This document shows, in pieces, positions 19,687 through 40,340 of a stretch of 58,873 nucleotides of DNA (its first letter is position 1; the number at the start of each line of letters is the position of its first letter). The translations under genes and the position numbers were made by a program. The notes under the pieces were generated by a model, which ran no database searches, was not told the DNA's origin, and worked only from the letters and a program-made list of their open reading frames with translations. This stretch comes from a virus (taxonomy: Duplodnaviria > Caudoviricetes): positions 1 to 58,873 of IMG/VR virus record IMGVR_UViG_3300047560_003072. One strand, written 5' to 3'.

Positions 19687-20154
19687 TTACTCTGCGGGGG
19701 TGTCCTGTGTTTCTTCTTGAGACGGGTTTTGAATTGAATCGAGAATGATTGCTGCTGCATATGCATAAACTTCGAAGTCGGTCTTTGCACGGCGCAGAGA
19801 AGATTTCAATGATTTATTTGCAGTATTCTTAATAACATCGACTTCAAACGCTTGCAACTTAACAGCAAACAGACGCTCTTGACGCTCTTTGTCAATCTTA
19901 GCTTCTTCAGCAGCTTTCTTTGCTTCGAGTTCCTGAGCCTGCTTTTTGATCATTTTCTGCGTGTTCTGCTCAAGCTCATCAGCAGAAAACTTTGCTCTGA
20001 CCTCTTGATAGTCAGCGTTGTTAGACTCATTAGAGTTAATAACCGCTGTCGAAACGCGACCATCATCATAATGAAATTCCACCGATAGCACTGTACGTGC
20101 ATTGTTTGTCCAATGAGGATTCTTAATAGTTCTCTTCATGCTGTTCTTACCCAA
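19687..20154 (-). CDS. putative fibre assembly chaperone
   Basis: IKNPHWTNNARTVLSVEF resembles tail-fibre-assembly protein N-termini; overlaps the 3' end of the giant repeat gene. Confidence 0.45.
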   Translation of the reverse strand: MGKNSMKRTIKNPHWTNNARTVLSVEFHYDDGRVSTAVINSNESNNADYQEVRAKFSADELEQNTQKMIKKQAQELEAKKAAEEAKIDKERQERLFAVKLQAFEVDVIKNTANKSLKSSLRRAKTDFEVYAYAAAIILDSIQNPSQEETQDTPAE

Positions 20155-24266: not shown

Positions 24267-24284
24267 TACAATACTCTAGCAGTA

Positions 24285-26327
24285 TTACGCCGTTCTTACA
24301 TACAGCGTATACGTGGTTGGTGTTGTAGTATTTAGGACAGTCAAACCAGTGTATGCTCCTGTAAATGCTCCCGTGAACACTTTTGAGAATGCGCCTGTGT
24401 AAGCGCCAGTGTAGAAAGAAATATACGATCCAGTGAATGCACCAGTAAATACACGACTGTATGTACCAGAGAAGTATCCAATTGTTGAGTATACTCCCGT
24501 GTACGCGCCGGAATAAAATCCCGAATATGCGCCAGTGTACAAGCCGGTAAACGCACCCGTGTATATGCCAGTGTATGTTGTGTTGTATATACCCGAAAAT
24601 ACTCGCGAATACACACCTGTGAAGCCGCCTGAATATTGACCTGTGAATGCTCGAGAGTATGCACCCGTATATGCAGCAGTGTATGCACCTGTAAAGTTTA
24701 CGCTGCGTAAAGTCACATTAATATGCGTAAAAGTTTGTGCGTATGATCCGGAATACAAACCGGTGTAGTTACCGACATATGTTGTTGTAAATGCACCAAC
24801 GAAGCTAGCAAAACCGCTGACGTATGCTCCCGAAAAATATCCTATACCGGTTCCACCACCACCGACGTAGTAGTGAGCATACCCTCCAACAAACACGCCT
24901 GCATAAATGTTTGGTGTTGAAGCGGAATAATTACCAACATATACACCCGTAAAGTAATGTGGGTGACCGTTGTAATAACCATTCAGGTAGTTATCAGTAT
25001 AATAACCAACATATGAGTTATCATACCACGACCAACCTATGTTTAGGTAATCTGTATAATACTGACGAGAGAATGCTTGTATTCGTGTTGGACCTTGTGA
25101 TATACGTGTGTATACACCCGAGTACTGGCCAGTGAATGCTCCCGTATAGTTACCAATATATGTACCAGAGAATGCACCGGTGTACGTACCGGCATAAGTT
25201 GTATTGTATGCTCCAGTAAATGCACCCGTATAAACGCCAGTAAAAATGTTACCATATGCACCGGTAAATGCACCCGTATAATTTCCTGCGTATCCCGTTA
25301 CATAACCACCAGTGAATGACTGGCCATACGTTCCGGAATATGAGCCTGCATAATATCCTATGTACGCACCAACGTAGTTACCTGAATAGTTTAAAATCGA
25401 TTGGTAGATACCTGAGAACGCGCCCGTAAATCCACCTGAATATTGACCAGTATAAGCCGTTGCATAGTTACCAATATAGGTACCAGAGAATGCACCTGTG
25501 AATGATTGTTGATATGTGCCCGAATACGAAATACCAGACAAATCATTAATTTTGTCAATGTAAGCACCACGACCGACCCATGTTCCTGTTCCTGGAGCAG
25601 CCGTACCAACATTATATGTACCTACACCTGTGGTACGATAATATTCACCAAGGAATGGAGCAAGAGCGGTGATATCCGCCTGCGTCATTTCAGTCAACTG
25701 ATTGTTGACGAGCTTTAATGGTAGGTTTGTACTTGCGTTGTTAGCTGTCCATGCATCTGTACGTTGATACAGTCTATACACTTCAAGAATATTAGTGCCT
25801 GCTGAATCATAGTGCTGCTGGAAAAAATAGTTGTTTCTGTCTGTCCATGTTCCTGCCGGTAACGAATCACTCGGTGCAAGTAGGTAGTATGATCCACGAC
25901 CACCTGTAAGCATCGAAGAAGCAGAAACAATGTATGGCCAGAAGAAGCTGTTCATGTCATCATTTGACATTTCACGAACTTGATATTCACCACCAGAGAG
26001 AACGTAATGCACAGGGCGCGCCTGTGTGGTCATTGTTTGTGTACTATACGTTTGATACAGTGTATGTGTGTCGTATGATACAGATGCTGGGTGAACACCT
26101 ACTCCAGCCGTATAACCATCAAGAGCAGCTCCACGAGAAACGTAATTTGCAACCGAAGGATATTGGTCAAAACGAATCCAGTTACCCGTATTTTCAATAA
26201 GGGTATTGTTAGCAAGTACTGTGTTAATTATAAGAGGAATGACGAGATCTTGGAGCTCCGCATCAGACATCTCCTGCAAACCAACCGCTACTGCTCCACT
26301 ATATTTTGCTCGGAGTGGTCTTCCCAT
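24285..26327 (-). CDS. 680-aa paralogous (Y/F)xGx tetrapeptide-repeat fibre protein
   Basis: Same N-domain motifs (GLQEMSDAE, REMSNDD, TEMTQAD, GTW..RG); about 390 aa of repeats; ends TYTLYVRTA. Confidence 0.8.
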   Translation of the reverse strand: MGRPLRAKYSGAVAVGLQEMSDAELQDLVIPLIINTVLANNTLIENTGNWIRFDQYPSVANYVSRGAALDGYTAGVGVHPASVSYDTHTLYQTYSTQTMTTQARPVHYVLSGGEYQVREMSNDDMNSFFWPYIVSASSMLTGGRGSYYLLAPSDSLPAGTWTDRNNYFFQQHYDSAGTNILEVYRLYQRTDAWTANNASTNLPLKLVNNQLTEMTQADITALAPFLGEYYRTTGVGTYNVGTAAPGTGTWVGRGAYIDKINDLSGISYSGTYQQSFTGAFSGTYIGNYATAYTGQYSGGFTGAFSGIYQSILNYSGNYVGAYIGYYAGSYSGTYGQSFTGGYVTGYAGNYTGAFTGAYGNIFTGVYTGAFTGAYNTTYAGTYTGAFSGTYIGNYTGAFTGQYSGVYTRISQGPTRIQAFSRQYYTDYLNIGWSWYDNSYVGYYTDNYLNGYYNGHPHYFTGVYVGNYSASTPNIYAGVFVGGYAHYYVGGGGTGIGYFSGAYVSGFASFVGAFTTTYVGNYTGLYSGSYAQTFTHINVTLRSVNFTGAYTAAYTGAYSRAFTGQYSGGFTGVYSRVFSGIYNTTYTGIYTGAFTGLYTGAYSGFYSGAYTGVYSTIGYFSGTYSRVFTGAFTGSYISFYTGAYTGAFSKVFTGAFTGAYTGLTVLNTTTPTTYTLYVRTA

Positions 26328-27548: not shown

Positions 27549-30176
27549 TTACTTGATGAGTTGTACAAACGCTTTGACGTTTGTATTTGAGCTCGTTGGC
27601 TTGAACAAAACAGCAACGGCCGTACTATTTATCGATGTCGAAAATAGACCAACGTTTGCCAAAGTAGTTGAACCAACCGTCGCAAACATTGTGATCGTTG
27701 AATCAGTACGGTTTTGAGCAATTAAGAATTCTTGTACTTGTGAGTTACCACCAGTACCACCAAGTCCGACCGTACCTACACGTGCAAAAACTTTTGCGCC
27801 ATAATATGTCAATGGGAAGTTAAACACTTCAACGGCCGAGTATGCTGCTGCATTTCCTGTCTGAGTGTTTGCAGTGCCAAGGTCGGTATTTGAAACAACA
27901 TATTCCAGCACATCATTTTGAAGAGTGACGGTGTTGCTAAACGTGACTGGACCCGTGACGGATAGCGTGTTGCTAAATGTTACAGCACCTGTTGCACTTA
28001 GCGTATTCGATAGCGTTGCTGCACCAGTCACAGTGATTGTATTGCTGAAACTAGCTGAGTTTGTAACAGACAATGTATTGCTAAACGATACAGCACCTGT
28101 TGCAGACAACGTATTGCTAAACGATACAGCACCTGTTGCAGACAACGTATTGCTAAACGATACAGCACCTGTTGCAGACAACGTATTGCTAAATGTTGCT
28201 GCACCAGTCACAGCGATTGTGCTGCTAAACGTTACAGCGCCCGTAGCGGATAATGTGTTGCTAAATGTTGCAGCGCCTGTCGCGGAGATTGTGTTACTAA
28301 AACTAGCTGAGTTTGTAACAGACAATGTATTGCTGAATGTTACAGCACCTGTTGCACTTAGCGTATTGCTGAATGTTACAGCACCTGTTGCACTTAGCGT
28401 ATTGCTGAATGTTACAGCACCAGTCACAGTAATTGTATTACTGAAGCTGGCTGCATTTGTAACAGATAAAGTATTACCGAACGACGCAGCTCCAGTAGCG
28501 GATAATGTATTGCTAAATGTTGCAGCACCAGTTACGGCAATTGTGTTCGATAGTGTTGCAGCACCTGTCAGTGTAGAGGTACCGAGAACACGCAATGATC
28601 CAACGTTAGCAAGACCGATTGGTGATTCAATATCACCTGTTGCGCGCAGACTAATTCTTTGTGGTGTCAGCGTGTGACCGGTTTCACTTGTAGCAGTTGC
28701 AGTGATGTTTATATTTGCACCACCATATGTTGTAGCAAGCTGGAATGCTGTCGAGTTTGCACCAACAACATAGTAGTTTGTTGCGTTAGCCAAACCGGTA
28801 AGAGCTGTATTACCTGCTGAAACAATATAACGAACTAAATCACCGTTGGCAAATCCATGAGCAGCAGTGGTCACAATATAATCAGTTGCGCTCGTCACAC
28901 CTGTAGCAGGATTGAACGTTGCGGAGGTACCGACGATGTTAGCAAAACCAGTTACAGTGGTGTTACCAATAAATGTCGTGTTGTTGACATAAAGAACACC
29001 GTTTACTGTAGCATCACCAGCAACACCAATTGTGTTAGCAAGAGAGACAATACCTGTAACTTTTAGTGTATCAACGGAAACGTTTAGGTTACTTACAGTA
29101 GAGTTAGCAAGAAGAGCAATACTTGTCAATGAGCTGTTTGCTTTAATTGTTGTATTGCCAGTAACCGTTGTGATACCTGTGACACCAAGTGAAGAGACAG
29201 TAATGTCCGCGTTTGTAACTGTAGAGTTACTTGTGAATGCTGCCATTGTTGTGGTAGCATTTGCCTTCAATGTTACGTTGCCTGTAACAGTCGCTGTAGC
29301 AACTGTCGCAGAAATATTAGATGTCACACTCAACGAACCACCTTGAATGGTAGTAGCTGCAGCGTTAACAAACGCGTTTGCAGCATTAACATACGTATTC
29401 GAAGTCGTTGTTAAAGAACCGCCCTGAATGGTAGCGGCTGAAGTATTAATATACGCATTTGCTGCGTTAATGTATGTATTCGATGTGGTCGTTAATTGAC
29501 CACTTTGTACCGTTGTGACAGCAGCATTGACAAAAACGTTAGCTGCATTGATATATGCGTTTGATGTAACAGTAACATTACCACTAGCGACGGTCATAAC
29601 AGCCGCGCTAATATAGGTGTTTGTTGTTGTAAGAGAAGTTGTGTTAGCAACAATGTCAACGTTTGTTGTCGTTGTGTTACTCGTCAGAGACACCATTGTG
29701 GTGCCACCGTTTGCATTCTTTGTTGTTACGTTGCCGTAAACAGATGTCGTTTGCGTATTGATTGCAAGCGCAGTTGTATTAACTGTTACATTAGCTGCGT
29801 TGACATAGGTGTTGGATGTAACAACTACATTACCACCAACAACGCGGAAAAACGAACCATTAACATACGTATTAGCTGCTTCGATGTAGATATTTGCAGT
29901 CGAATTTAAAATGGTGCCAGTGAAGAGTGCGTTGGATGTAATTGAAAGGTTGGTTGAGGTCGCAACATTACCACCGCGCAAAACATTACCTACAGCCACG
30001 GTGTTGGCAGCAAAAATACCATTAACCTGTGAGTTACCAGTTACCCATGCACCATTCGCAGCGCTGTTTGCTGTAACAGCCTGATATGTAAAGGTGTCTG
30101 CCATCTGGTTGGTGATACCAACCCACGATGCAAAGGAATCGGTTGCAATTACTACATTAGATATCGCTCGTGCCAT
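27549..30176 (-). CDS. long fibre protein with 12-aa repeats
   Basis: DSFASWVGITN N-motif typical of baseplate-attached fibres; TTAAHGF module; (T/S)FSNTLSATGA(V/A) repeats; beta-sandwich C-terminus. Confidence 0.75.
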   Translation of the reverse strand: MARAISNVVIATDSFASWVGITNQMADTFTYQAVTANSAANGAWVTGNSQVNGIFAANTVAVGNVLRGGNVATSTNLSITSNALFTGTILNSTANIYIEAANTYVNGSFFRVVGGNVVVTSNTYVNAANVTVNTTALAINTQTTSVYGNVTTKNANGGTTMVSLTSNTTTTNVDIVANTTSLTTTNTYISAAVMTVASGNVTVTSNAYINAANVFVNAAVTTVQSGQLTTTSNTYINAANAYINTSAATIQGGSLTTTSNTYVNAANAFVNAAATTIQGGSLSVTSNISATVATATVTGNVTLKANATTTMAAFTSNSTVTNADITVSSLGVTGITTVTGNTTIKANSSLTSIALLANSTVSNLNVSVDTLKVTGIVSLANTIGVAGDATVNGVLYVNNTTFIGNTTVTGFANIVGTSATFNPATGVTSATDYIVTTAAHGFANGDLVRYIVSAGNTALTGLANATNYYVVGANSTAFQLATTYGGANINITATATSETGHTLTPQRISLRATGDIESPIGLANVGSLRVLGTSTLTGAATLSNTIAVTGAATFSNTLSATGAASFGNTLSVTNAASFSNTITVTGAVTFSNTLSATGAVTFSNTLSATGAVTFSNTLSVTNSASFSNTISATGAATFSNTLSATGAVTFSSTIAVTGAATFSNTLSATGAVSFSNTLSATGAVSFSNTLSATGAVSFSNTLSVTNSASFSNTITVTGAATLSNTLSATGAVTFSNTLSVTGPVTFSNTVTLQNDVLEYVVSNTDLGTANTQTGNAAAYSAVEVFNFPLTYYGAKVFARVGTVGLGGTGGNSQVQEFLIAQNRTDSTITMFATVGSTTLANVGLFSTSINSTAVAVLFKPTSSNTNVKAFVQLIK
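27920..28570. repeat. 36-bp (12-aa) tandem coding repeat array
   Basis: Roughly 17-18 degenerate units; near-identical gtattgctaaacgatacagcacctgttgcagacaac copies around 28076-28183. Confidence 0.85.
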
Positions 30177-30390
30177 TTGTTTTTCCGTTTATTAATTGTT
30201 GCAGTAGCTGCTTTATCTCTTTCATATCCTGCTGCAATGTGGCAACTTCTTGAGCAGTGCGTTGCAATTGCAACACTCTTTCTCTCTCCATTCTGAATTG
30301 AGCATAGCCAGCTTTATCTATATTTAGAATAGCGGTCGAACGCTTGTCTCTGACAAAACCAGGATCTTCCGTTTTAATTATTTCGTTCAT
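30157..30390 (-). CDS. small conserved T4-like phage protein
   Basis: FVRD..S.AILN.D...Y motif plus coiled coil, typically found after the large DUF4815/VrlC-like gene. Confidence 0.7.
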   Translation of the reverse strand: MNEIIKTEDPGFVRDKRSTAILNIDKAGYAQFRMERERVLQLQRTAQEVATLQQDMKEIKQLLQQLINGKTNGTSDI

Positions 30391-32426
30391 GCTGAGACAG
30401 CGATTGCACGAACATCGTCGACGTATGGAACCTTGATACCATCTTCAGAAAGAAGAACGATCTTGAGAGCAAAAGAATCGAAGCCTTTATGTATGGCTCT
30501 TGCTTTGTTGTAATACGTTACAATGTTTTGTGATTGAATATCAAGGAATGCGCTGCTTGGACGATCAATAACGTCAACTTTCAAACCTGTTCCAACCAAG
30601 CTAGCATTTGCGCCTGTACCTGTTGCAAGAGTAAACGTTGTCGTGTTAGATTCAACGACAGTATCCACAAAATATGTGCTTGGAATGATAGGTGAGTACA
30701 CACGAACCAAATTACCATTTGCAATCTCTGTACTTACTGATCCCGATGTTCCCGTAACAACGGTACATGCAGAGAGAGTCGTGAATGATCCTGTTGCCGT
30801 AGTTCCTAGTCTATAGAAAGGAATTGAATATTCAAGTTCTTTACGGTCGTAAATGTTTGTGGGGTTGCTATAGTCTGTATTTGCTGTGACTAAAGAAAGC
30901 TCAGTCCAATCTTTCAAGTCCATAGACTCAAGATCTTCCGAATTACGCAGTCGTGCGTATACAATAATGTTTGTATTAGCTGGTCTGTAAGCACGAACAT
31001 ATATTTTCAGATCTTCGGCAATCTGATCATCGGAAAGGGGAATTACTTTGGAAATATAGCGTGTTTTTGCAGATCCAAATCCCGTATACTCATTTGTCGT
31101 TGTGTTGTTTAATTCATAACGCTCAACAAACAAGTCCATATTCTCTTCACGGACATATGGTGAAACGTATGGATTAGTCGTCGTAAAGGTAATCAAACCA
31201 CGGAAAGCATCTTCTGTTGCGGCCGTTGTTACTTTGTTTGACTGTGAGAAAATTACAGGATCATATTGGTTAATTAGCAGTCTATCACCAAGCGTTGCCG
31301 TAACAGCATTTGTATCGCTGAATTGATAGGCAGCATTAGCAAAGTTTAAAGATGCTGTTACTGCTGTTCCTGCAGGTGTTTTAATGTCAAAGTTTGGAAC
31401 AAGACCATTAACAGCGTAATCCAAAACTGTTGTTATGAGTGCTGTTGCTTGTGAATCGACACCGTAAATTCTTTCTCCTGCGCTGAGATAAACAGTCGTA
31501 TTAGCTGTTGAATCTTGTAGGATTACATGATCGGAAAGACCGTTAGCATCAAACAACTTTGCAGTTACTGTTTTGAAATAGTTACCTGACGTATTTGAAA
31601 ATGATGGTACAACATCAACAACCATAGATGTTGCATTTGTAACGGAAACAACTGTACGTATTTCTGTGTTGCCTGGAGTACCATCTGTAATGGCAAACTT
31701 ATCACCAACAAGAAGTGTTGTGTTGAATGACGTACCTGTACCTGTCAATGTTGTACTGTTTTCCGAAATAGCCACTGTACCGGTTGCGTTTGCGCTTAAG
31801 CGATACACATCCTCACCACCCTTGAAATCACCCACCATGCTATTAACACGGAGGATTTCATATTTGCGGTTATAAACTCTAAATGTTTCCGACGTCTTTG
31901 AAAATTTTGCAACTTGTAGATTGAAGGAAAGGTCCGCATCAAGGACAGGTGTCAAATCTCTACCGTTTGTAATTGTGTAGAAGGCACCATCAACTTTACC
32001 AGAAGTTACTTGTGTCTTTGTTGTTGTGCCAAAAACGTTTTCACCAGCTTTGTTATACCACAATTTGAAGTCAGGATCACTACCATCAAACTTAATCAGA
32101 AAAGCATACGAACGAGCTGTCGAAAGAGGAACAGGCTGTCTGAAAGTAAAAGTTGTTGCTGTAGCACCTGACGCATCGGTAAGAATATTTTCATACTCCA
32201 CACGACCAGCAAACGTATGATGATACAGATCTAGGTTAGGAGATCCATTATCGTTTGTCATTGCGAGGTAGACGGACGCACCTGGATTTGTAATCCCAGA
32301 TTTTGTCTTTCCTGAAACAGGTTTTCCAAAGAAATACAAGTCGACGCTCGTGACAAAAATGCTATCAGCACCCTCTACTGCATCTTTATCAAGATAGAAT
32401 GTTTGAGCTAAATCAAAACCAGCCAT
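30387..32426 (-). CDS. virion structural protein (C-terminal part of DUF4815/VrlC-like family)
   Basis: LAQTFY, FVTSVDLYF, TTFTFRQPV, RYISKVI, AEDLKIY, FALKIVL, D.RAIA motifs. Confidence 0.75.
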   Translation of the reverse strand: MAGFDLAQTFYLDKDAVEGADSIFVTSVDLYFFGKPVSGKTKSGITNPGASVYLAMTNDNGSPNLDLYHHTFAGRVEYENILTDASGATATTFTFRQPVPLSTARSYAFLIKFDGSDPDFKLWYNKAGENVFGTTTKTQVTSGKVDGAFYTITNGRDLTPVLDADLSFNLQVAKFSKTSETFRVYNRKYEILRVNSMVGDFKGGEDVYRLSANATGTVAISENSTTLTGTGTSFNTTLLVGDKFAITDGTPGNTEIRTVVSVTNATSMVVDVVPSFSNTSGNYFKTVTAKLFDANGLSDHVILQDSTANTTVYLSAGERIYGVDSQATALITTVLDYAVNGLVPNFDIKTPAGTAVTASLNFANAAYQFSDTNAVTATLGDRLLINQYDPVIFSQSNKVTTAATEDAFRGLITFTTTNPYVSPYVREENMDLFVERYELNNTTTNEYTGFGSAKTRYISKVIPLSDDQIAEDLKIYVRAYRPANTNIIVYARLRNSEDLESMDLKDWTELSLVTANTDYSNPTNIYDRKELEYSIPFYRLGTTATGSFTTLSACTVVTGTSGSVSTEIANGNLVRVYSPIIPSTYFVDTVVESNTTTFTLATGTGANASLVGTGLKVDVIDRPSSAFLDIQSQNIVTYYNKARAIHKGFDSFALKIVLLSEDGIKVPYVDDVRAIAVSA

Positions 32427-32442
32427 TTGTTATCCTTAAACC

Positions 32443-32865
32443 TTATTGCTTGACTTCTACGTATTCGCTTTCAGGCGGATACAGAACTTGTATACGAATG
32501 TGACTACGGAAGCAAGAAAGACTCGTCGTCATAAAATCATCCGAAAGTGTTTGTGAATTTGTGGTTGTAAGAGCAACTTCCTTATTACCTGCAATAAGGT
32601 TTGAAGCAGCTTGCGATTGCTCAAGAGTTGTCTTATCTCCGCTTAAACCAGAATCATACAGATAGTCAAACGTCATTTTTCCATTGCTATCTGTTCTAAG
32701 AGGTTCACCCGCTTTGCCGCCAAGAGGCTTTAGCTTCGATGCTGGAACAAGCTGTCTTTCAAAATAAAAATAGTGTGTTGTAAGTGGCAGCAAACCTGAA
32801 ACGTTAAACGTGAACGTTTGCTCTCTTGCTACAAAATATACACGAGGATTAGTCTTCGTTGGCAT
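32443..32865 (-). CDS. virion structural protein (middle part of DUF4815/VrlC-like family)
   Basis: R.QTFTFNVSGLLP.T.HYFYF and LRTDSNG motifs. Confidence 0.6.
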   Translation of the reverse strand: MPTKTNPRVYFVAREQTFTFNVSGLLPLTTHYFYFERQLVPASKLKPLGGKAGEPLRTDSNGKMTFDYLYDSGLSGDKTTLEQSQAASNLIAGNKEVALTTTNSQTLSDDFMTTSLSCFRSHIRIQVLYPPESEYVEVKQ

Positions 32866-34117
32866 GCTTAACCTTTTTCAGCTTAAAGAAAATCTTGTTT
32901 CCTTTTGGTGTTAACTCTATTCGTCTCTTAATAATTGGTTCTTGTTCTAAAACAACAACAAAATTCTTACATATCATTTGCATAACATCAGGACCAACCT
33001 TCATTGTGAGACCGGAGCCAGGACATCCTCGCTCACCTCCACCGAAAGGTATATAACTTCCCTTCTCTATGCTTGATAAACCTTTTGCAAAGCGCATTGG
33101 ATCGAATAACTCTGGACTCTTCCAATTCTGCTCTGACATATGCGTATCACGCACACTAACTAAATCTGTTGAACTCTTCCAAAAGTGAAATGGACATTTC
33201 GACTTCTGCTTTGGTTCATATGATAACAAATGGAATGGCGGGTACATTCTTAACACTTCCATAAACGCCCAACGAGCATACGCTCCATCGTTTGCTATTC
33301 TTGCTGCATCGTGTCGATTTTTCGAAACGACATACAGCATCCACATTACAGCGCCAGCAAGTGAGTTACCATTTATGATTAGCATTCTGATTTCACCCTT
33401 TACATCTTCTTGTGTAAGGATACCCTCTTGCTCAGCCTGCTTCAAATCATAAAACAAACTACCTTTTTTACCAACCGCCTTTGTATAAACCAACTCCGCT
33501 AACATATCCAGGTTCTCATTGCGTTTCTTCAACCCTGGCGCAAATACATCTTTAACAAACTTTGGTACAAACGGAACATAATTCAAAAAAAACATACGTG
33601 CCGTTGAAACATCCGCCCCATGTTCTTTATGGGAAAGTCCAATTCTATTTAGCTCTTGCTGTGCATCATCTGGCAACTTTGCACCGAGCAGATTACTCAA
33701 CAGACTGTTTCCAATAATCCCACCCACAACACCAATAGGATTAAACGTTTCACCGTTTTCTGAAATAGTCGATACAGTTTCAAACAACTGCTTTGTAACT
33801 TGATCAGAAATAATTTCGTATATTGAAGCCTTTAAGTGCTTCTTCATAAACTGACGTTTAATTTTAGCCTTTTCATCATCTTGCGAAACAGATGAGTGAT
33901 TCGCACCCATATGTTTAAGCATTCTACGTGAAAATCCCGACCGTGTTATATCTCTCCTTGTGTACAGCTCACTAATAACTTTTGGATTGGATGTAACCAT
34001 TATTTCCTTGCCAACAGCTCTAAAACGAACTGTTTGGCTAGGAATTTTTGAAAGATCAGTTAGTATCTTTTTGAATTTTGTTTTGTAGGTCATTATATTG
34101 TATCGATCCTTTGACAA
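32849..34117 (-). CDS. cytochrome P450
   Basis: Heme-thiolate signature PFGGGERGCPG, K-helix EVLRMYPP, meander WKSPELFDPMRF; alternative start ATG 34093. Confidence 0.93.
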   Translation of the reverse strand: MSKDRYNIMTYKTKFKKILTDLSKIPSQTVRFRAVGKEIMVTSNPKVISELYTRRDITRSGFSRRMLKHMGANHSSVSQDDEKAKIKRQFMKKHLKASIYEIISDQVTKQLFETVSTISENGETFNPIGVVGGIIGNSLLSNLLGAKLPDDAQQELNRIGLSHKEHGADVSTARMFFLNYVPFVPKFVKDVFAPGLKKRNENLDMLAELVYTKAVGKKGSLFYDLKQAEQEGILTQEDVKGEIRMLIINGNSLAGAVMWMLYVVSKNRHDAARIANDGAYARWAFMEVLRMYPPFHLLSYEPKQKSKCPFHFWKSSTDLVSVRDTHMSEQNWKSPELFDPMRFAKGLSSIEKGSYIPFGGGERGCPGSGLTMKVGPDVMQMICKNFVVVLEQEPIIKRRIELTPKGNKIFFKLKKVKHANED

Positions 34118-37100
34118 TCTTGTATTTCAAGAATGCCTTTACAGCAGCAAATTTTACCGCGTAAGGAACTTTCTCACCTTTTGTTGAAGTTACATCACTA
34201 TACAATTGATTGACAATGTCTCTATCATTGTACTGCGTTGCATGCTTGTCGATTAATTTCAATGTTGCTAACTTGTATAGCTTTTTTGCTTGTTCATTTT
34301 GACCAAGTTTAACAAGCTGCGTCAGTGGTTTAATAGTTTCACTGTAGAAGTCATCCCATTTTGTTTTACGCTCGGCAATAATCGGACCAACAACATAATA
34401 GAATTTCTTAGCCTGATCATCGCGCTTGGAAGTCATGTGAACGTCACGTAGATAACGTGCAAGATGCAATTCCTCACAGTCATCATCCAATCCCAAGTAT
34501 TGTACAGTAGCTGTTGTTAGGAAACAAGAGCCACTACCGCTCGAGCCGCCAGTACTTCCGGAAGTATCACCAGACATACCTGCACCACCGTAATCAGGCG
34601 CTGGTGGTGCGGGATCTGGAACAATTGTCACTTCACCGCGGGCCATGATTGAGAATGACGACGGCTCAACTGTACCTTCACCAACGAATTGTGTACGTTG
34701 ACCGTCTGTACCAATAACACTACTCTTAATGCTCTGGTTAATCAAGATAGTAGAAGCAAAAGGCAACATCAATGTATCACCATTAATAATACCTGCTGCT
34801 GTGTTTGCATGAGTTGTATCAAAGCGAGCTTCAAAGTTGATTTGCTTTGTAGCTGGTTTCAAAAAGCCTTTTTGCTGATCAATAGTTGCAGCAAACTCAG
34901 GATGTGTTACATCGACCTTTGTGTAATCATCAAATGGTTCGACGAAAAAGCCATTTTTGAAACGACTCGTTGTTGGTGTAATACCACTAGGAATAACAAG
35001 ATCTTTAATCGCTGATTCGACTTGATTCAAGGATGTTGTATATTCAACAGCTTTCAAACGACGATCCAACGAACCAATATCAGACATTGTGTAACGTCTT
35101 GGCTGAGATTCAATCGACTCTTTCATTGTGATAGATCTGATCGATGATTGTACCATCTTTCTGTTAACACTACCACGTGTACTTGTTGTTCTCTTTGCAG
35201 CAAATTCAACACTGTCTGCATTTAGCGAAATAGGGAATGAAGGATATGGAGGAACCTTCAATACTTCAAGTGTAACAGCGCCAGCCGGCTCTTTTGGAGG
35301 AACTGGATTTGTTGGATGTGGGATACCTTCAAGCACTTCAAAAGAAGAGTCTTTACGGACAATTACTCTATCAATACGCGAATCGTAGTAATTGATTGTA
35401 AACGAAACAAGTGAATCAGGAGCAGGGAAATATTGATCATCACCACTCAGAGCAAATGTGTTTGCTGGGTTCACCGTAGCACCTGCAACAGTTGTCGCAA
35501 TGTTAGCTGTGTTTGATCCATATGGGCGGAAGTCGATTACATCACGAAGATCGTAATAATCACCCTTGGTAGTAACAGTTTCAGGCATTTCCAAAACGTT
35601 AATGCCGGCGTTATTATTTGCACTTAGTGTAGTCAGGTTAGCTGTTGCGTTGATCGTATAAGAACCATACGTAAAGAAACCTTCCGCGCCACCTGTTGTA
35701 AATGCATCAACCTTAACAAGGATAAATGTATTAGTATTGACACCTGGTTGTGCGCCTGGGTTCAAAATCAACTTAGCGGAACGATAAGCATTCTCATCAT
35801 CATTTACATCAACGGAGAAATACTTGGTAATGTCTGTGTTACTCGTTGTAACAGCAGATGAGTTACCTAGGTAAACGTTTTTCAAACGAATGACACCTGG
35901 AATACCTAGGTACCAAGGACCAGTGTTGCCGCCTGCGTTATTGCTTGTATGGATTTTAACATACAATTCACGGTTAACAGTCTTCGTTACAGGAGATGCG
36001 TTTGTCTTCTTCTTGTTGTATACTGCAATTGCTCCGACTTGCGGTGTAATTGCTTTGTTAATATCAATTGTCAGTGTTGTAGCACCAGCGTTTAGGTTTG
36101 CTGTTCTTGTCGAACGCACAATATCGATTGGATACAGAGCAGGGAAGAAAGGAACAAGGTTACCTGTAACAGCCAACGCAGCATTTGCATAAAGTGTCAT
36201 TGAGGTGTTGCTTGCAACTGATTTAATTTGTGCAACAACGTTTGCTGTTGTATTTGCAATCTTAACCCAATCGCCTGCCTGATATTCCGTCAGCCAATTT
36301 GTGGACGTTCCTGTTAATGTCGGGCTCGTCGTGCTGGTGGTTGTTGATCCGTTGGTATTCGACTGAGCTTGTGTGTTTGCAATCGGGAAAAGAATGATGT
36401 CCTGTTTTTGTGCTGCAGACAATGAACCGCCGGCAGTGTATGGGAACGTCTCACCAGTACCCAAAGGACCAATTGTCAGTTGACCGGTTGTGGAAAGCTG
36501 CAGTGTTGATGGAGAAACTGTTCTGTACGTGTATGTAATATCAGTCAACGATGCTACACCTTCGCGGCCAACAGGGAAGATCATCTTATCGTTTTGAACA
36601 TCGACAAGAGAAGCAATGTTGGATGCTGTAGTTGCATCATATGTCAAAACAACGTCTGCAACACCATCATATGTGCTATCATAATATACAGCACGAACTT
36701 GACGGAATGAATAACCCTGTTTCATGTTGATATCAAACAAGTACATACGATAAACGCACTCTGGTGTACCTGGTGTACCTGAATGAATTACCAACGAACG
36801 CATACGCGCTGTACCGATTTCAGAGCCTGGAGCAGTAATCGATCCCGTACCAACCGTCATTGTTGATCCGTATTGTTTTGCTGCACTGCGCAAACTTACA
36901 GTTGCACCTGCTTTGAAATCGAACTGACCTGCAAGCTCTTTAACCAAAACATAATTACCGTAGTTAATGGTAATGTTCTGGTTCGGTGACGTTACAGTAT
37001 CTGTTGAACGTCTGATGTCAAGGTAGTTGTTGTAAGTCGTTTGTACGCGATAACCACTAATGTAAGCCAATCCTGGATCAATAATGACTTGAGCATGAGT

Positions 37101-38573
37101 TGCATTAGCAGTTGATTTCTCTTTTGTTGCAACGCGGAACGGATCAGCAACAAAATTACCTTGCGATTCGCGTGTACGGCGAGCAAACTCATCAGCTAGA
37201 TTGGAATAGATTGTTGTACGATTCTCTTTGTATGGGAATCCTTCTTTCCATTCTGCCAAAGCAAAAAAGTCGACGTTTGCGGCAGCCTCATCCAACGTAA
37301 GTGTAGTAAGCGTTGGTGTTAGTTGCAGACGGTCTGCACCAGGCGCTGTATAGTTTGTTGTGTTGGAAGCGTTGTCATACAACGAGTCATCTTGCGCAGC
37401 GGTAACAACGGTTTCTGGTGTTGTAAAACCAACTGCAATGTTGTCTGGTGTTGTTGTGTACTTGTCAACAACAATAACTTGAGGATCTACCTTTAGAAAG
37501 TATCCCTTTTGATAGATGATACCTTCTGATACACCAAATGCGTAGCCTGTACCAATAGCATTAACATCGCTGTTTGCAACAGTAATAATGGTTTTATAGT
37601 TGACAGGAGTGATTGTTAAAGCTGGAGTGCCGTAAGTAGCCGTAGCATTAGCTGACTGAATCGTAACATGGGGTAAGAATGTGTAGTCGGAACCACCATC
37701 TTGGATGGAGATTAACTGAACAATACCTAATGTGTCTGTAGTAATTAGACCCTTTGCACCACTACCAATTAGAGATGAAACGTTTGCAGTTGCTCCGCTG
37801 ATGTTACCACTAATGTTATAGCCAGGTGTAAATGTCCATGCTGTTGCGTTGACAGATGTATTGACAAGATCTGTAGAACGTGGTTTAACACTCAACACAA
37901 TTGTGTTTGCAATTGCTGTTGTATTGATTGTGTTAATGACAGCTTTTGCACCTGTCGTGGCTTGTGTGATTGTTTCACCTTGCTGGAAAGCAATTGAGTT
38001 ACCCGTGATCGTAAGAGCACTCATAACGACGAGTGAGTCGGAATTTGAAAACCCCTGACCACCACTATCAACAGACATTTTGAACAGCTCGTAGTTTTTA
38101 CTGAAGACTGTTAGCTGTTGACTTGGACTGAAAGCAGAATAAACAGTATTTCCGTTAGCAGGATCAGGATCCGAGCTGTTAACATATTGAACGAAGAGTG
38201 TTTTTAGGTCAGGCGATTTTGATTCCAGACCGTCTTCATAGTTAACAATACGTCCTTGTAGGTTCAGATTACTCTTGATGAAATATCCAACATATGCGGA
38301 AGGAATAGAAGGTTCACCATCTACTTGTGTATCAAGAATCTTTACATAGCTGTAAGTTGGTAAATACGAAAAGTTAACGCCACTTATGATTGTGCCTGAT
38401 TTGAAAACGTGATTACCAAAACGTTCGATTTGGTTTTGCAGCGTCGTTTGAAGCTGGTTCAACTCTCGGGTCTGAACAGCAACGCCCGGCTTAAAAAGAA
38501 TCTTGTAGTATTCTTTTGCCTGATCGTAATCGTCAAAATATGGGCTTGCGCTGTAAGAATTTTCTAATGGCAT
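34056..38573 (-). CDS. large virion structural protein (DUF4815/VrlC-like) with C-terminal CFI-box-CTERM-like domain
   Basis: PYFDDY...ILFKPG.AVQTRELNQLQ, APGADR, RRTRESQGNF, RFKNGFFVEPF; C-terminal GGSSGSGS-CFLTTA...LRD...YY..GP. Confidence 0.85.
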   Translation of the reverse strand: MPLENSYSASPYFDDYDQAKEYYKILFKPGVAVQTRELNQLQTTLQNQIERFGNHVFKSGTIISGVNFSYLPTYSYVKILDTQVDGEPSIPSAYVGYFIKSNLNLQGRIVNYEDGLESKSPDLKTLFVQYVNSSDPDPANGNTVYSAFSPSQQLTVFSKNYELFKMSVDSGGQGFSNSDSLVVMSALTITGNSIAFQQGETITQATTGAKAVINTINTTAIANTIVLSVKPRSTDLVNTSVNATAWTFTPGYNISGNISGATANVSSLIGSGAKGLITTDTLGIVQLISIQDGGSDYTFLPHVTIQSANATATYGTPALTITPVNYKTIITVANSDVNAIGTGYAFGVSEGIIYQKGYFLKVDPQVIVVDKYTTTPDNIAVGFTTPETVVTAAQDDSLYDNASNTTNYTAPGADRLQLTPTLTTLTLDEAAANVDFFALAEWKEGFPYKENRTTIYSNLADEFARRTRESQGNFVADPFRVATKEKSTANATHAQVIIDPGLAYISGYRVQTTYNNYLDIRRSTDTVTSPNQNITINYGNYVLVKELAGQFDFKAGATVSLRSAAKQYGSTMTVGTGSITAPGSEIGTARMRSLVIHSGTPGTPECVYRMYLFDINMKQGYSFRQVRAVYYDSTYDGVADVVLTYDATTASNIASLVDVQNDKMIFPVGREGVASLTDITYTYRTVSPSTLQLSTTGQLTIGPLGTGETFPYTAGGSLSAAQKQDIILFPIANTQAQSNTNGSTTTSTTSPTLTGTSTNWLTEYQAGDWVKIANTTANVVAQIKSVASNTSMTLYANAALAVTGNLVPFFPALYPIDIVRSTRTANLNAGATTLTIDINKAITPQVGAIAVYNKKKTNASPVTKTVNRELYVKIHTSNNAGGNTGPWYLGIPGVIRLKNVYLGNSSAVTTSNTDITKYFSVDVNDDENAYRSAKLILNPGAQPGVNTNTFILVKVDAFTTGGAEGFFTYGSYTINATANLTTLSANNNAGINVLEMPETVTTKGDYYDLRDVIDFRPYGSNTANIATTVAGATVNPANTFALSGDDQYFPAPDSLVSFTINYYDSRIDRVIVRKDSSFEVLEGIPHPTNPVPPKEPAGAVTLEVLKVPPYPSFPISLNADSVEFAAKRTTSTRGSVNRKMVQSSIRSITMKESIESQPRRYTMSDIGSLDRRLKAVEYTTSLNQVESAIKDLVIPSGITPTTSRFKNGFFVEPFDDYTKVDVTHPEFAATIDQQKGFLKPATKQINFEARFDTTHANTAAGIINGDTLMLPFASTILINQSIKSSVIGTDGQRTQFVGEGTVEPSSFSIMARGEVTIVPDPAPPAPDYGGAGMSGDTSGSTGGSSGSGSCFLTTATVQYLGLDDDCEELHLARYLRDVHMTSKRDDQAKKFYYVVGPIIAERKTKWDDFYSETIKPLTQLVKLGQNEQAKKLYKLATLKLIDKHATQYNDRDIVNQLYSDVTSTKGEKVPYAVKFAAVKAFLKYKIVKGSIQYNDLQNKIQKDTN

Positions 38574-38582
38574 GTTTGTCTC

Positions 38583-40340
38583 TTAAAACTGCAGAATGAT
38601 TTTAATTGTTTCTGATTGACTTGCAGAACGTGTGATAGGACTTTCGTTCTCAAGGTATACTACTTCACCAGAACCAACAACTAAGTCTGGATGATACGCA
38701 TAATCAAGTCTCGCGACAGCCTCACTTACCGTACCAATAATCGTATTACCGGTATTTAGTGTGCCTCTGGAGTGCGTGATGTAAACATTTGTCGATGTAT
38801 TGCTGTGGAAAATTGCGTTAGCAATTTGTAGATCTGTTTGATAGATTTTTTCATCAGGAACAAATGTACCAGCTACAGGTGTGAATGTGAATCGCTGACG
38901 TTGATCAAATGTGTTGAAATTCTTTGACTGGCCATTGATTTCATACGAAGTGACGTTACCTGATGCTGTTATTCCCTGAGAAACAGTCTTTGATGTAACG
39001 AACACACCATTAACATTTGTCAATGACAATTTGTTCGTATCAAAAGCAGTAACATATCCTGTTGCCAAAGAATCAGATTGCGTAACTAGGTTACCAACAC
39101 CAAAAGCACCGCTCAATGAAGATAATGTCAATACGACGTTTGCAAACAAAGGATCCTTGATAATACCGACTGTTCTGTAATCGTTTGATACAGGAATTGT
39201 ACCTGTCTCACTTGTTTCAAACTTAACACTCATTGCAAGAGCACGAGCGCCAAGTTCATATTCTGGGTTTGAACCATGGCCACCTTTTGGACCAAGAATA
39301 ACAGACATTGAAGCTGCATTCTGCACGCCACCTGTGTTACCAACGACAGAAGCGGAAGCATATGTGTAACCGCTTCCTCTGCTAATAATTTCAACCTGTG
39401 AAACACTATTGGTTGAGTATGAGTTTACTTTTGCGCGAGCAATAGCTCCACTTCCATCACCAGTAATCAATACGTAAGGTGTTATTTCATATGTGGATGT
39501 TGTATCGGGGTTTGTACTAAAAGCAGAATCGATCTCAATAGTCTTTGAGTTACCAATAACAGTGTAATTAACGATTCTTCTACCTTGACCACTACCGGTA
39601 CCGTTTGTAATGTAAATGAAGCTACCGTTATAGAAGTTATTTGATGCACTTGCTGTATTGGCAATGTTGTATTTCAGCGGATTACCACCAACACGAAGGT
39701 CTGTCGAAATGAATGTACCTTGCAGGTATGTGTTGTAATGAGAACCAGGCGTATTAACAACAACAACGTCAATTGCACCTGAAACAGCATTACCAACAAC
39801 TTCATTATTTGCTAGGACCGGCATATAGCTAGCTGTTGCAAATTTATTGAATGTTGTTGAGTCCATTGAATACATATACTTCCAGACATAACCGTCTGAT
39901 GTACTATAAAACTCATCATCAGGAGCTGTTTGCGTAACGTCAGGCGCAACGGTGGAGGCAACATTACCGTTGTTATCTAAACATTTAAAGACGTGAAACG
40001 AAGATGTTGCATCAACAGCGACGTAGTATGCTTTTTCCGAAAGATCTTCGGTGCTTCTGTAAGCTGCGTATTTTGTATTTGATGTCCAATTGTAACGTGG
40101 GGCTACAGGCATCACGTCGCTGGAACCTACACGCTTACCAAACACCATTTCATCATATGCGGTATACAATGTATCTTGAACGCTGTTTGTAATCGGATCG
40201 ATATTTGAGTCACCGGTGCTGTATTCCGTATGTCTTCCAGCAAAAACATAGTAGACGCTGTTAGCCGTTTCGCTGATCGATTCGCGAAATTGATTAACGT
40301 TGTGAAGACGAAAGTAGTTGGTAATTAGTTGTGTTGCCAT
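38583..40340 (-). CDS. gp8: baseplate wedge protein, gp8-like
   Basis: RYNW, VFKCLDNN, DGYVWKYMY, GGHG, GEVVYLENESPITR...ETIKIILQF. Confidence 0.85.
   Translation of the reverse strand: MATQLITNYFRLHNVNQFRESISETANSVYYVFAGRHTEYSTGDSNIDPITNSVQDTLYTAYDEMVFGKRVGSSDVMPVAPRYNWTSNTKYAAYRSTEDLSEKAYYVAVDATSSFHVFKCLDNNGNVASTVAPDVTQTAPDDEFYSTSDGYVWKYMYSMDSTTFNKFATASYMPVLANNEVVGNAVSGAIDVVVVNTPGSHYNTYLQGTFISTDLRVGGNPLKYNIANTASASNNFYNGSFIYITNGTGSGQGRRIVNYTVIGNSKTIEIDSAFSTNPDTTSTYEITPYVLITGDGSGAIARAKVNSYSTNSVSQVEIISRGSGYTYASASVVGNTGGVQNAASMSVILGPKGGHGSNPEYELGARALAMSVKFETSETGTIPVSNDYRTVGIIKDPLFANVVLTLSSLSGAFGVGNLVTQSDSLATGYVTAFDTNKLSLTNVNGVFVTSKTVSQGITASGNVTSYEINGQSKNFNTFDQRQRFTFTPVAGTFVPDEKIYQTDLQIANAIFHSNTSTNVYITHSRGTLNTGNTIIGTVSEAVARLDYAYHPDLVVGSGEVVYLENESPITRSASQSETIKIILQF

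What the first reader, a model, noticed from the sequence alone, without database searches (positions are those of the whole stretch)
32849..34117. Cytochrome P450 embedded in the baseplate structural operon
Seen: a complete P450 signature set (FxxGxRxCxG, ExxR, PxRF). The gene overlaps both neighbouring structural genes, so it is co-transcribed late. No ferredoxin or reductase is in the window. Established: viral P450s are known mainly from giant eukaryotic viruses and are very rare in phages; some bacterial P450s cross-link aromatic side chains in peptides (OxyB, CYP121, RiPP P450s). Inference: its position suggests action on a virion component, either Tyr cross-linking of the Tyr-rich hairpin fibres or oxidation of a lipid or small molecule attached to the adjacent protein.
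Basis: partly seen in the sequence, partly recalled or inferred. Interest (0 to 1): 0.9.

Follow-up and report, generated by a model that had tools for sequence, protein, structure and literature searches.

The report
Phage P450 paired with baseplate-protein tail domain
An uncultured T4-like phage carries an intact cytochrome P450 that, in phages and bacteria alike, always sits directly behind a gene ending in one particular helical end-domain, so it is probably a dedicated enzyme for that protein and not a stray metabolic gene.

Summary
Window 32849-34117 (-) encodes an intact, very divergent cytochrome P450; the likelier start is the ATG at 34093, giving 414 aa. It scores 76 bits on Pfam PF00067 and has the Cys-ligand loop, ExxR and PxRF. 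The AlphaFold model has the P450 fold. The gene lies in a T4-type baseplate operon (gp53, gp5, gp25, gp6, gp7-like, gp8, DUF4815 protein) and overlaps both neighbours.

The main result is a linkage. In 6 distinct phage or metagenome loci and 9 bacterial genome loci, 15 of 15, this P450 clade directly follows a gene with the same ending. That ending is a low-complexity linker followed by a ~150-aa helical domain that starts with the invariant CFLTTAxV, a long form of the CFI-box-like domain. The proteins carrying the domain differ: DUF4815 baseplate proteins, Gly-rich fibre-like proteins, and bacterial proteins of which 6 of 9 begin with a borosin-type peptide N-methyltransferase.

My best reading is that the P450 is a dedicated tailoring or partner enzyme of that domain. 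The chemistry is unknown. The Tyr-fibre cross-linking idea gains no support.

An earlier report of this scan (e1-5932124) found the same pairing on another phage genome. I found no paper describing it.

The parts
32849..34093 (-). Cytochrome P450 gene, 414 aa from the ATG at 34093 (the ORF lister's TTG at 34117 gives 422 aa). It defines a new, deeply divergent clade.
33017..33046 (-). Haem-thiolate loop FGGGERGCPG. The ligand Cys is residue 365 in 422-aa numbering.
   Evidence: F, G, G, R and C are invariant in 26 of 26 sequences of alignment A5.
33356..33376 (-). I-helix segment INGNSLA. The usual acid of the acid-alcohol pair is Asn251; the alcohol position is Ser252.
   Evidence: The profile alignment to CYP175A1 puts N on E and S on T. 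Across 26 sequences the acid position is N 11, F 9, S 2, and T, H, Y, D once each. The alcohol position is S or T in 26 of 26.
33248..33259 (-). ExxR motif (EVLR) of the K helix.
   Evidence: E and R are invariant in 26 of 26 sequences.
33089..33100 (-). PxRF (PERF-type) motif, PMRF.
   Evidence: P, R and F are invariant in 26 of 26 sequences.
34059..34526 (-). Long-form CFI-box-like ('CFL') C-terminal domain of the 1505-aa protein, residues 1350-1505, starting with the invariant CFLTTATV. The model is seven helices.
   Evidence: NCBIfam CFI_box_CTERM scores only 17.8 bits against a cut-off of 40.
34527..34619 (-). Pro/Gly/Ser-rich low-complexity linker in front of the domain's first Cys.
   Evidence: pLDDT is below 50 in the model.
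34056..38573 (-). 1505-aa DUF4815 / phrog_358 baseplate-module protein that carries the linker and the CFL domain.
   Evidence: It is homologous over residues 3-1281 to the 1802-aa protein that follows gp8 in Sinorhizobium phage phiM12.
32443..32865 (-). 140-aa protein, overlapped by the P450 stop codon. It is conserved only in the T4-like subset, so it is not part of the minimal pair.
   Evidence: 59% identity in L003. L031 has a 129-aa ORF at the same position, with no identity computed. No Pfam, NCBIfam or PHROG match.
30387..32426 (-). 679-aa protein, which is the C-terminal part of phrog_358. In phiM12 it is fused to the DUF4815 part in one 1802-aa protein.
38583..40340 (-). gp8-like baseplate wedge protein, given as context.

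Best explanation
The P450 is one half of a conserved two-gene module. The other half is the long-form CFI-box-like ('CFL') domain at the end of the preceding protein: a disordered linker, then about 150 residues of helices starting with the invariant Cys-Phe-Leu-Thr-Thr-Ala-x-Val.

I propose the following sequence. The P450 is made late in infection, translationally coupled to the 1505-aa baseplate-module protein. It takes up haem and draws electrons from host ferredoxin or flavodoxin. It recognises the CFL domain through the ~60-residue C-terminal extension that only P450-linked copies have. It then oxidatively modifies that domain, by hydroxylation or a cross-link, before or during baseplate assembly. 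The likeliest sites are the invariant N-terminal CFLTTAxV peptide or an invariant aromatic residue. This would be RiPP-like tailoring of a segment embedded in a large protein.

Shown: the gene is an intact P450 and the pairing is strict. Inferred: haem binding, the electron source, recognition of the domain, and every chemical step.
For: 1. Strict pairing.
- The P450 profile hits 7 viral or metagenome contigs: the window, L002 (=L030), L003, L004, L005, L031 and L032. L004 and L005 are near-identical copies.
- In each, the gene immediately upstream, overlapping the P450 start, ends in the long CFL domain at 156-258 bits.
- Among 69 further loci fetched with the P450 profile (24 metagenome, 45 genome), exactly 9 contain a CFL domain.
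- Those 9 are the 9 best-scoring P450s (144-160 bits; all others score below 100). In all 9 the CFL gene is immediately upstream.

2. The carrier proteins differ while the pair stays constant.
- Phage carriers are DUF4815 proteins of 1488-1816 aa, or Gly-rich fibre-like proteins of 525 and 677 aa.
- Bacterial carriers are 616-1013 aa. Six of 9 begin with a borosin-type peptide N-methyltransferase, with E 5e-63 to dbOphMA/OphMA.
- That enzyme family is known for acting on a peptide fused to its own C-terminus (passages of bioRxiv 10.1101/2021.12.24.474128).

3. The short form of the domain occurs without the P450.
- This holds in 19 of 19 viral loci within up to 6 kb.
- It also holds in 5 of 5 genomes within 1.5 kb, among 401 genomes of one bacterial order.
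- In the 1.84-billion-protein library the superfamily has 4141 hits at E<=1e-3, but only 19 at E<=1e-30, the range where the listed hits match the profile through its P450-linked extension.

4. Common descent and co-inheritance.
- All 27 P450s of this clade fall on one side of a branch with SH-aLRT 99, against 31 other P450s (quick tree). CFL context is known for 15 of the 27.
- P450 and CFL distances correlate: Mantel r 0.74 for 6 phage loci and 0.92 for 9 bacterial loci.

5. The catalytic core is conserved.
- The ligand Cys, ExxR and PxRF are invariant in 26 of 26 sequences spanning 22-93% identity.
- A natural variant differs at third codon positions at 11 of 15 listed sites.

6. The related phage phiM12 has the same baseplate gene order with neither a CFL domain nor a P450. 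The two therefore come and go together.
Against: - No direct evidence exists that the two proteins touch or that the domain is modified.
- Gene adjacency fits docking as well as it fits a substrate relationship.
- All 9 bacterial carrier proteins have a conserved hydrophobic, possibly membrane-spanning segment about 100 residues before the domain. Two long-form proteins from the library start with signal-peptide-like sequences. In some hosts the domain may therefore lie outside the cytoplasm, away from a cytoplasmic P450.
- The borosin link may concern the acidic repeats of the linker and not the CFL domain.
- The usual I-helix acid is missing in 25 of 26 sequences, so ordinary O2 activation is not assured.
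- No redox partner was found, though the records are fragments.
- The outgroup of the tree is only what my own scans returned.
Confidence: 0.5

Rival explanations
1. Docking, not substrate. The long CFL domain is an adaptor that holds the P450 on its carrier protein: on the baseplate or fibre in phages, next to a methyltransferase in bacteria. The enzyme then acts on a third molecule, for example a host envelope lipid, a carotenoid or another small molecule, perhaps with peroxide as oxidant.
For: The same strict adjacency applies. The carrier proteins are unrelated, as expected of a portable adaptor. The I-helix acid is missing in 25 of 26 sequences, as in some P450s that bypass normal O2 activation (the comparison is recalled). 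The best solved sequence matches include two carotenoid hydroxylases, CYP175A1 and CYP97A3, but their E-values are close to those of BM3.
Against: A virion-borne P450 would lack an electron supply outside the cell. The invariant CFLTTAxV peptide at the linker boundary looks more like a recognised or modified site than a docking surface. NCBIfam scores for CYP152 peroxygenase are far below cut-off, 32.6 against 600.
Confidence: 0.25
2. Non-classical role. The P450 acts as a folding or assembly helper or a haem-dependent sensor for the CFL domain. Alternatively the CFL domain serves the P450, for example in haem or redox handling, with no covalent change to either.
For: The short-form domain often carries four Cys (C-x5-CC-x8-C), which could bind a metal. 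The CFL fold has no solved relative, so its function is open.
Against: The extra Cys are lost in the P450-linked long form, and the second Cys is Ser in 7 of 15 sequences. The full catalytic signature of the P450 is conserved in 26 of 26 sequences.
Confidence: 0.1
3. One reading: the P450 cross-links Tyr residues of the YxGx hairpin fibres encoded at 20136-26327.
For: P450s that couple aromatic side chains exist (recalled). The fibres lie in the same strand run of genes.
Against: Fibre homologues accompany the P450 only in L003. They are absent from the fetched flanks of L002, L004 and L005, and the bacterial loci show no phage structural genes. The CFL domain accompanies the P450 in 15 of 15 loci.
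Confidence: 0.05
4. An unrelated auxiliary metabolic gene or moron that merely landed in the structural operon.
For: GC skew of 33001-34000 is -0.24 against about -0.03 to -0.05 in the neighbouring kilobases. Phages carry many metabolic genes.
Against: The same neighbour is kept across phage types and two bacterial phyla. No near-identical host gene exists: the best cellular relative is at most 28% identical over the full length, 31% over a partial match. GC content equals that of the neighbours.
Confidence: 0.05

Closest known systems
Cytochrome P450 superfamily (Pfam PF00067). Nearest solved sequences: CYP175A1 of Thermus, P450 BM3 haem domain, CYP97A3.
   Same: The fold (TMq about 0.7), Cys-ligand loop, ExxR, PxRF, and a length typical of soluble bacterial P450s.
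   Different: Only the C-terminal half aligns by sequence, at E 1e-9 to 1e-17. Identity to any cellular P450 found is at most 28% over the full length and 31% over a partial match. Under the 40% naming rule (recalled) this would be a new CYP family. The I-helix acid is Asn. The gene is tied to a protein-domain partner.
P450s that tailor ribosomal peptides (RiPP P450s, e.g. NCBIfam ApyO; biaryl and cross-linking P450s, recalled).
   Same: A P450 gene abuts the gene for its presumed peptide or protein substrate. The sister clade sits behind borosin-type precursor-enzyme fusions.
   Different: ApyO is the best NCBIfam hit, but at 38.9 bits against a cut-off of 525. The presumed substrate is a folded ~150-aa domain on a 1505-aa virion protein, not a short precursor. 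No product is known.
Bacterial sister module: borosin-type N-methyltransferase, acidic linker and CFL domain, followed by a P450 (Chitinophaga, Pedobacter, Sphingobacterium, Mucilaginibacter, Azospirillum, Niveispirillum).
   Same: The same long CFL domain (35-42% identity to the window's) and the same P450 clade (22-25% identity), in the same order and abutting.
   Different: The carrier is a methyltransferase (6 of 9) with a hydrophobic segment, not a baseplate protein. The linker is acidic, not Gly-rich. The I-helix acid position is Phe, and the phage SKCP motif is absent.
CFI-box-CTERM domain (NCBIfam NF041770) and the widespread short-form domain.
   Same: A C-terminal position behind a low-complexity linker. 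Shared motifs: C-F-(I/L)-T-T-A, L-R-x-(F/L)-R-D and Y-Y-x-x-x-P.
   Different: Scores of 17.8-27.4 bits lie below the cut-off of 40. The long form adds about 60 residues (helices 6-7) and loses the CC pair. Only the long form is P450-linked.
Known viral P450s: giant viruses, Ranid herpesvirus 3, Mycobacterium phage Adler.
   Same: They are P450 genes in viral genomes with no viral redox partner (passages of PMC9405906). They are structural matches in BFVD at 12-16% identity.
   Different: No sequence match to any of 50,697 phage records at E<=1e-5. This P450 sits inside a tail or baseplate operon with a fixed protein-domain partner.

Membership tests
Cytochrome P450 (PF00067) | Profile score above Pfam's gathering cut-off | tested here: met
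   76.4 bits against 22.8, E 2.5e-21. 70.2 bits in the genome search.
Cytochrome P450 (PF00067) | Haem-thiolate loop FxxGxRxCxG | tested here: met
   FGGGERGCPG at residues 358-367. It is invariant in 26 of 26 sequences.
Cytochrome P450 (PF00067) | ExxR and PERF motifs | tested here: met
   EVLR at 287-290 and PMRF at 340-343. Both are invariant in 26 of 26 sequences.
Cytochrome P450 (PF00067) | P450 fold | tested here: met
   Model pLDDT 84. Foldseek probability 1.00 and TMq 0.67-0.74 to BM3, CYP97A3 and CYP4B1.
Cytochrome P450 (PF00067) | I-helix acid-alcohol pair (A/G)Gx(D/E)T of O2-activating monooxygenases | tested here: not met
   The acid position is Asn251. An acid occurs in 1 of 26 relatives. 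The alcohol position is kept as S or T in 26 of 26. This feature is common in the family but does not define it.
Cytochrome P450 (PF00067) | Haem binding and a 450-nm CO-difference spectrum | not testable with these tools
   Needs purified protein.
RiPP-tailoring P450 (NCBIfam ApyO NF050147) | Score above the curated cut-off | tested here: not met
   38.9 bits against a cut-off of 525.
RiPP-tailoring P450 (as a functional class) | Encoded beside its peptide or protein substrate and modifies it | tested here: inconclusive
   Adjacency holds in 15 of 15 loci. Modification was not testable.
CYP152 fatty-acid peroxygenase (NF053744) | Score above the curated cut-off | tested here: not met
   32.6 bits against a cut-off of 600.
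CFI-box-CTERM (NF041770), for the partner domain | Score above the curated cut-off | tested here: not met
   Window 17.8 bits and bacterial copies 21.6-27.4 bits, against a cut-off of 40. The domain is related to this family but is not a member by its rule.
Borosin precursor/methyltransferase fusion, for the carrier protein | N-terminal alpha-N-methyltransferase domain homologous to OphMA or SonM | tested here: not met
   Absent from the window's 1505-aa protein and from all phage carriers. Present in 6 of 9 bacterial carriers.
Class I/II P450 system | A cognate ferredoxin, flavodoxin or reductase encoded nearby | tested here: inconclusive
   No Fer2, Fer4_15 or Flavodoxin_1 match in 4 viral records. 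These records are 6-33% complete.

The most novel reading that the evidence does not exclude
Phages chemically mature their own tail machinery with a P450. A portable cassette, made of a linker, the CFL domain and a dedicated P450 of a new CYP family, installs an oxidative modification on the end of baseplate or fibre proteins. The modification could be a cross-link, a hydroxylation, or an oxidative cleavage or attachment at the invariant Cys. The same cassette serves borosin-like membrane proteins in bacteria and has moved between phages and cells. This would be the first P450-dependent post-translational modification of a virion protein, and a new class of protein-embedded RiPP-like chemistry.
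Probability: 0.35. Interest if true: 0.9.

Novelty: new variant of a known kind. Interest (0 to 1): 0.75.

Why it matters
P450s are almost unknown in phages, and none has a known role. Here the gene's invariable partner names a concrete, testable substrate or docking site: a ~150-aa domain that can be co-expressed with the enzyme.

If the P450 modifies that domain, three things follow:
- a new family of protein-tailoring P450s;
- a function for a rare branch of the large, uncharacterised CFI-box-like domain superfamily, which has more than 4000 cluster representatives;
- evidence that phage tails can be enzymatically matured by oxidative chemistry.

The bacterial sister module also points to an unexplored borosin-linked pathway.

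Tried and rejected
- **Complex prediction.** P450 + linker-CFL + haem returned no verdict (ipSAE 0.00, 0.00; mark 0.32). This is no evidence either way.
- **Context look-up.** I could not read the contexts of homologues P0001-P0015 or of most of the 19 long-form CFL clusters. I used the search for related loci and the genome search in their place.
- **Single-protein scan of viral contigs.** None of 7 pattern matches was a relative. The profile scan found 1 of 16.
- **Fused forms of the P450.** A search of longer proteins found only two eukaryotic ~1020-aa P450-domain proteins, and no fusion with CFL or a redox domain. The tool itself calls this weak evidence.
- **Fold of the CFL domain.** Foldseek PDB gave its best E at 0.84. 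VIA-align wide gave its best Z at 5.6, to generic helical bundles. No family can be named and none is excluded.
- **ESM Atlas on the CFL domain.** Best score 0.87 to unnamed clusters, which is uninformative.
- **tblastn of the CFL domain** against 50,697 phage records found no match at E<=1e-3.
- **Literature.**
  - 'CFI-box' gave 0 papers.
  - 'cytochrome P450' + 'cyanophage' gave 17 papers, of which 15 were listed, none relevant by title or abstract.
  - 'cytochrome P450' + baseplate + phage gave 12, none relevant by title or abstract.
  - The four terms phage-encoded, cytochrome P450, metagenom and auxiliary metabolic gave 3, none relevant.
  - Among the borosin papers, PMC11395268 holds none of my terms. 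In 10.1101/2024.01.09.574750 and 10.1101/2021.12.24.474128 I read passages only. They mention no such domain. A P450 appears only in one unrelated Achromobacter cluster.
  - The supplementary Pfam tables of these papers might list P450 co-occurrence.
  - The 2019 survey of viral P450s is known to me only through its citation in PMC9405906 (passages).
- **Expression.** No RNA holder was listed for the stretch.
- **Hint/intein-like autoprocessing at Gly|Cys.** I considered and dropped this because the domain is modelled as all-helical. It is not excluded biochemically.
- **Polymorphic-toxin/immunity reading.** Dropped because here the C-terminal domain is the constant part and the N-terminal parts vary.
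- **Mantel and tree results** show co-inheritance only, not interaction. The tree is the quick version, because the careful search did not finish in 288 s. It has long branches, and its outgroup is limited to my own scan hits.
Full report
**What is there**

The window is a whole IMG/VR viral contig of 58,873 bp. CheckV rates it about 33% complete. The ORF at 32849-34117 (-) is real. I prefer the ATG at 34093, which gives 414 aa. It has an AAAGGA 13 nt upstream, and the 93%-identical homologue P0001 starts there.

The product is an intact P450:
- Pfam PF00067 scores 76.4 bits against a cut-off of 22.8.
- It has the haem-thiolate loop FGGGERGCPG, ExxR (EVLR) and PxRF (PMRF).
- The AlphaFold2 model has pLDDT 84 and pTM 0.85.
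- The best solved-structure matches are P450 BM3, CYP97A3 and CYP4B1, at TMq about 0.7.

The surrounding minus-strand run is a T4-type baseplate module: gp53, gp5 with OB and PAAR domains, gp25, gp6, a gp7-like wedge protein, gp8, then a 1505-aa DUF4815 protein. The P450 overlaps the end of that protein by 38 nt and the start of the next gene by 17 nt. The stretch shows no excess of promoter-like or terminator-like sites. Co-transcription is therefore likely, but it is inferred.

**How isolated the P450 is**

- tblastn against 50,697 phage records finds nothing at E<=1e-5.
- No PHROG family matches.
- In the 5.8-billion-protein collection there are 15 close homologues at 33-93% identity and E<=4e-57. 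Then comes a gap to ordinary bacterial P450s at 23-25% identity and E>=5e-8.
- In one genome for each of 185,579 species, the best relatives are at most 28% identical over the full length, and 31% over a partial match.
- No near-identical host gene exists.

The contig is not a chimera. The same gene order recurs in independent contigs. Contigs of three other studies' aquatic metagenomes carry near-identical DNA. One 514-nt contig bridges the CFL/P450 junction at 34007-34520. A roughly 91%-identical variant in one run differs at third codon positions at 11 of the 15 listed sites inside the gene (binomial p about 0.002; more sites were not shown). This fits purifying selection.

**The key result: a fixed partner**

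In every locus where I could read the context, the P450 follows, and usually overlaps, a gene whose product ends in the same way. First comes a low-complexity linker. Then comes a ~150-residue domain that begins with the invariant C-F-L-T-T-A-x-V. I call it the CFL domain.

Viral and metagenome loci: the window, L002 (=L030), L003, L004, L005, L031 and L032. L004 and L005 are near-identical copies of each other.

I then scanned 69 further loci fetched with the P450 profile.
- Exactly nine contain a CFL domain.
- They are the nine best-scoring P450s, at 144-160 bits against less than 100 for all others.
- In all nine the CFL gene lies immediately upstream.
- They come from Bacteroidota (Chitinophaga, Pedobacter, Mucilaginibacter, Sphingobacterium and others) and from Azospirillum and Niveispirillum.

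Counting duplicates once, that is 15 of 15 loci.

**Properties of the CFL domain**

- The alignment of 15 domains has 28 invariant columns. These include the opening CFLTTA-V, an LAR--RD motif, and Tyr, Trp and Phe positions. Its linkers are unrelated: Gly-rich in phages, Asp/Asn repeats or Pro-Glu repeats in bacteria.
- The domain is modelled as seven helices at pLDDT 82. No solved relative was detected.

**The carriers differ; the pair does not**

- Phage carriers are DUF4815 / phrog_358 proteins of 1488-1816 aa in T4-like contigs, or Gly-rich fibre-like proteins of 525 and 677 aa. L002 lies on a contig rated 19% complete at 66 kb, so it is probably a jumbo phage. In L032 the pair sits beside the terminase and tail-sheath genes.
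- L002's P450 and CFL domain are closer to the window's than those of L031 and L004. Yet L031 and L004 share the DUF4815 carrier with the window and L002 does not.
- Six of the nine bacterial carriers begin with a domain strongly similar to the borosin peptide alpha-N-methyltransferases: dbOphMA and OphMA at E 5e-63 to 4e-59, and SonM at 1e-24. Three lack it. Borosin enzymes are known for modifying a peptide fused to their own C-terminus (passages of bioRxiv 10.1101/2021.12.24.474128).
- A quick maximum-likelihood tree puts all 27 P450s of this clade (CFL context known for 15) on one side of a branch with SH-aLRT 99, against 31 other P450s. The outgroup is limited to my own scan hits and long branches are present.
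- P450 and CFL distances correlate: Mantel r 0.74 for phage loci and 0.92 for bacterial loci. This shows co-inheritance only.

**Long form and short form**

The CFL domain is a rare long branch of a large family.
- A profile search of 1.84 billion representatives gives 4141 hits at E<=1e-3 and 1115 at E<=1e-10.
- Only 19 hits reach E<=1e-30. In the listed rows, these are the hits that match the profile through its last ~60 positions.
- The common short form covers about the first 100 profile positions. It also sits at C-termini behind low-complexity linkers, and it often carries four Cys (C-x5-CC-x8-C).
- The short form occurs without a P450 in 19 of 19 viral loci within up to 6 kb.
- It also occurs without a P450 in 5 of 5 genomes among 401 genomes of one order, within 1.5 kb. 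In that order only the two long-form genomes have the P450.
- NCBIfam's CFI_box_CTERM model hits the domain only below its cut-off, at 17.8-27.4 bits against 40. The domain is therefore related to that family and is not a member by its rule.

**A natural control**

Sinorhizobium phage phiM12 has the same order gp53...gp8 followed by one 1802-aa protein. That protein matches the window's 1505-aa protein over residues 3-1281, and the window's 679-aa protein over residues 6-678. It has no CFL domain, and phiM12 has no P450 at this locus.

Both window proteins map to one PHROG, phrog_358. So in the window's lineage the linker, CFL domain, P450 gene and 140-aa gene lie between two halves of what is a single gene elsewhere.

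**Catalytic peculiarities**

Profile alignment to CYP175A1 places Asn251-Ser252 where monooxygenases have the Glu/Asp-Thr pair. Across 26 sequences:
- The acid position is N 11, F 9, S 2, and T, H, Y, D once each.
- The alcohol position is always S or T.
- The phage clade also has an invariant SKCP motif after the K helix, which the bacterial clade lacks.

What this means for oxygen activation is open. No ferredoxin or flavodoxin gene was found, but the records are fragments.

**Interpretation**

The pairing is the firm result. I put the probability that the two are functionally coupled at about 0.8. Within that, I favour the P450 acting on the CFL domain, at 0.5, for two reasons:
- The bacterial sister module has the layout of a RiPP enzyme-substrate fusion with a neighbouring tailoring enzyme.
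- The strictly invariant peptide at the linker boundary looks like a recognised site.

Docking of the enzyme onto its carrier, to act on something else, is the main rival at 0.25.

Against a simple cytoplasmic enzyme-substrate picture:
- All nine bacterial carriers have a conserved hydrophobic segment about 100 residues before the domain.
- Two long-form proteins start with signal-peptide-like sequences.

**Prior knowledge**

Phage and viral P450s are on record: giant viruses, Ranid herpesvirus 3 and Mycobacterium phage Adler (passages of PMC9405906). BFVD also lists an uncultured Caudovirales P450. I found no paper on this clade, on its partner domain or on 'CFI-box'.

Within this scan, an earlier follow-up on another genome (e1-5932124) reached the same pairing conclusion for a jumbo phage. 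I re-derived the pairing here independently of that note. New here are:
- the bacterial borosin-linked sister module;
- the distinction between the long and short forms;
- the split-gene context;
- the I-helix data.

Noticed in passing
window 30387-38573 (-); L104 13786-19194: The window's 1505-aa and 679-aa proteins correspond to the N- and C-terminal parts of one 1802-aa protein of Sinorhizobium phage phiM12, and both map to phrog_358. The linker, CFL domain, P450 gene and 140-aa gene lie between the two halves.
   Followed up: partly
L033-L051 (viral contigs); P0048-P0178: A short form (~90-100 aa) of the CFI-box-like domain ends many ~300-aa phage proteins behind Ser/Gly/Asn-rich linkers. 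It often carries four Cys (C-x5-CC-x8-C). The superfamily has 4141 cluster representatives at E<=1e-3, and I found no described function for it.
   Followed up: partly
L052-L059 and L064, the genes upstream of the P450: All nine bacterial carrier proteins have a conserved hydrophobic segment about 100 residues before the CFL domain (Kyte-Doolittle 19-residue mean 1.5-2.15). It may span the membrane. Six of the nine begin with a borosin-type N-methyltransferase. The acidic repeats in the linker resemble known borosin core repeats.
   Followed up: partly
window 33001-34000: GC skew is -0.24 here against about -0.03 to -0.05 in the flanking kilobases, while GC content is the same (0.40). This probably reflects the enzyme's amino-acid make-up compared with the Thr/Ser/Asn-rich structural proteins.
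   Followed up: no
window 30000-40000: Near-identical DNA occurs in contigs of runs from three other studies, labelled freshwater sediment (two) and marine metagenome. One run also holds a ~91%-identical P450 variant whose listed differences fall mostly at third codon positions.
   Followed up: partly
window 45482-46264 (-): The gp5-like hub protein is short (260 aa). It combines a gp5 OB domain with a C-terminal PAAR motif and shows no lysozyme domain.
   Followed up: no
P0036, P0040, P0044 (library proteins with the long-form CFL domain): Further carriers of the long-form domain include a protein whose N-terminal repeats look, by eye only, like bulb-type lectin repeats. Two others have signal-peptide-like N-termini. 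Their gene neighbourhoods could not be read.
   Followed up: no
L002/L030 (contig of 66,447 bp, rated 19% complete): The P450 pair also sits among several paralogous fibre-like genes of what is probably a jumbo phage. This may be the same kind of phage as in the earlier scan report e1-5932124.
   Followed up: no
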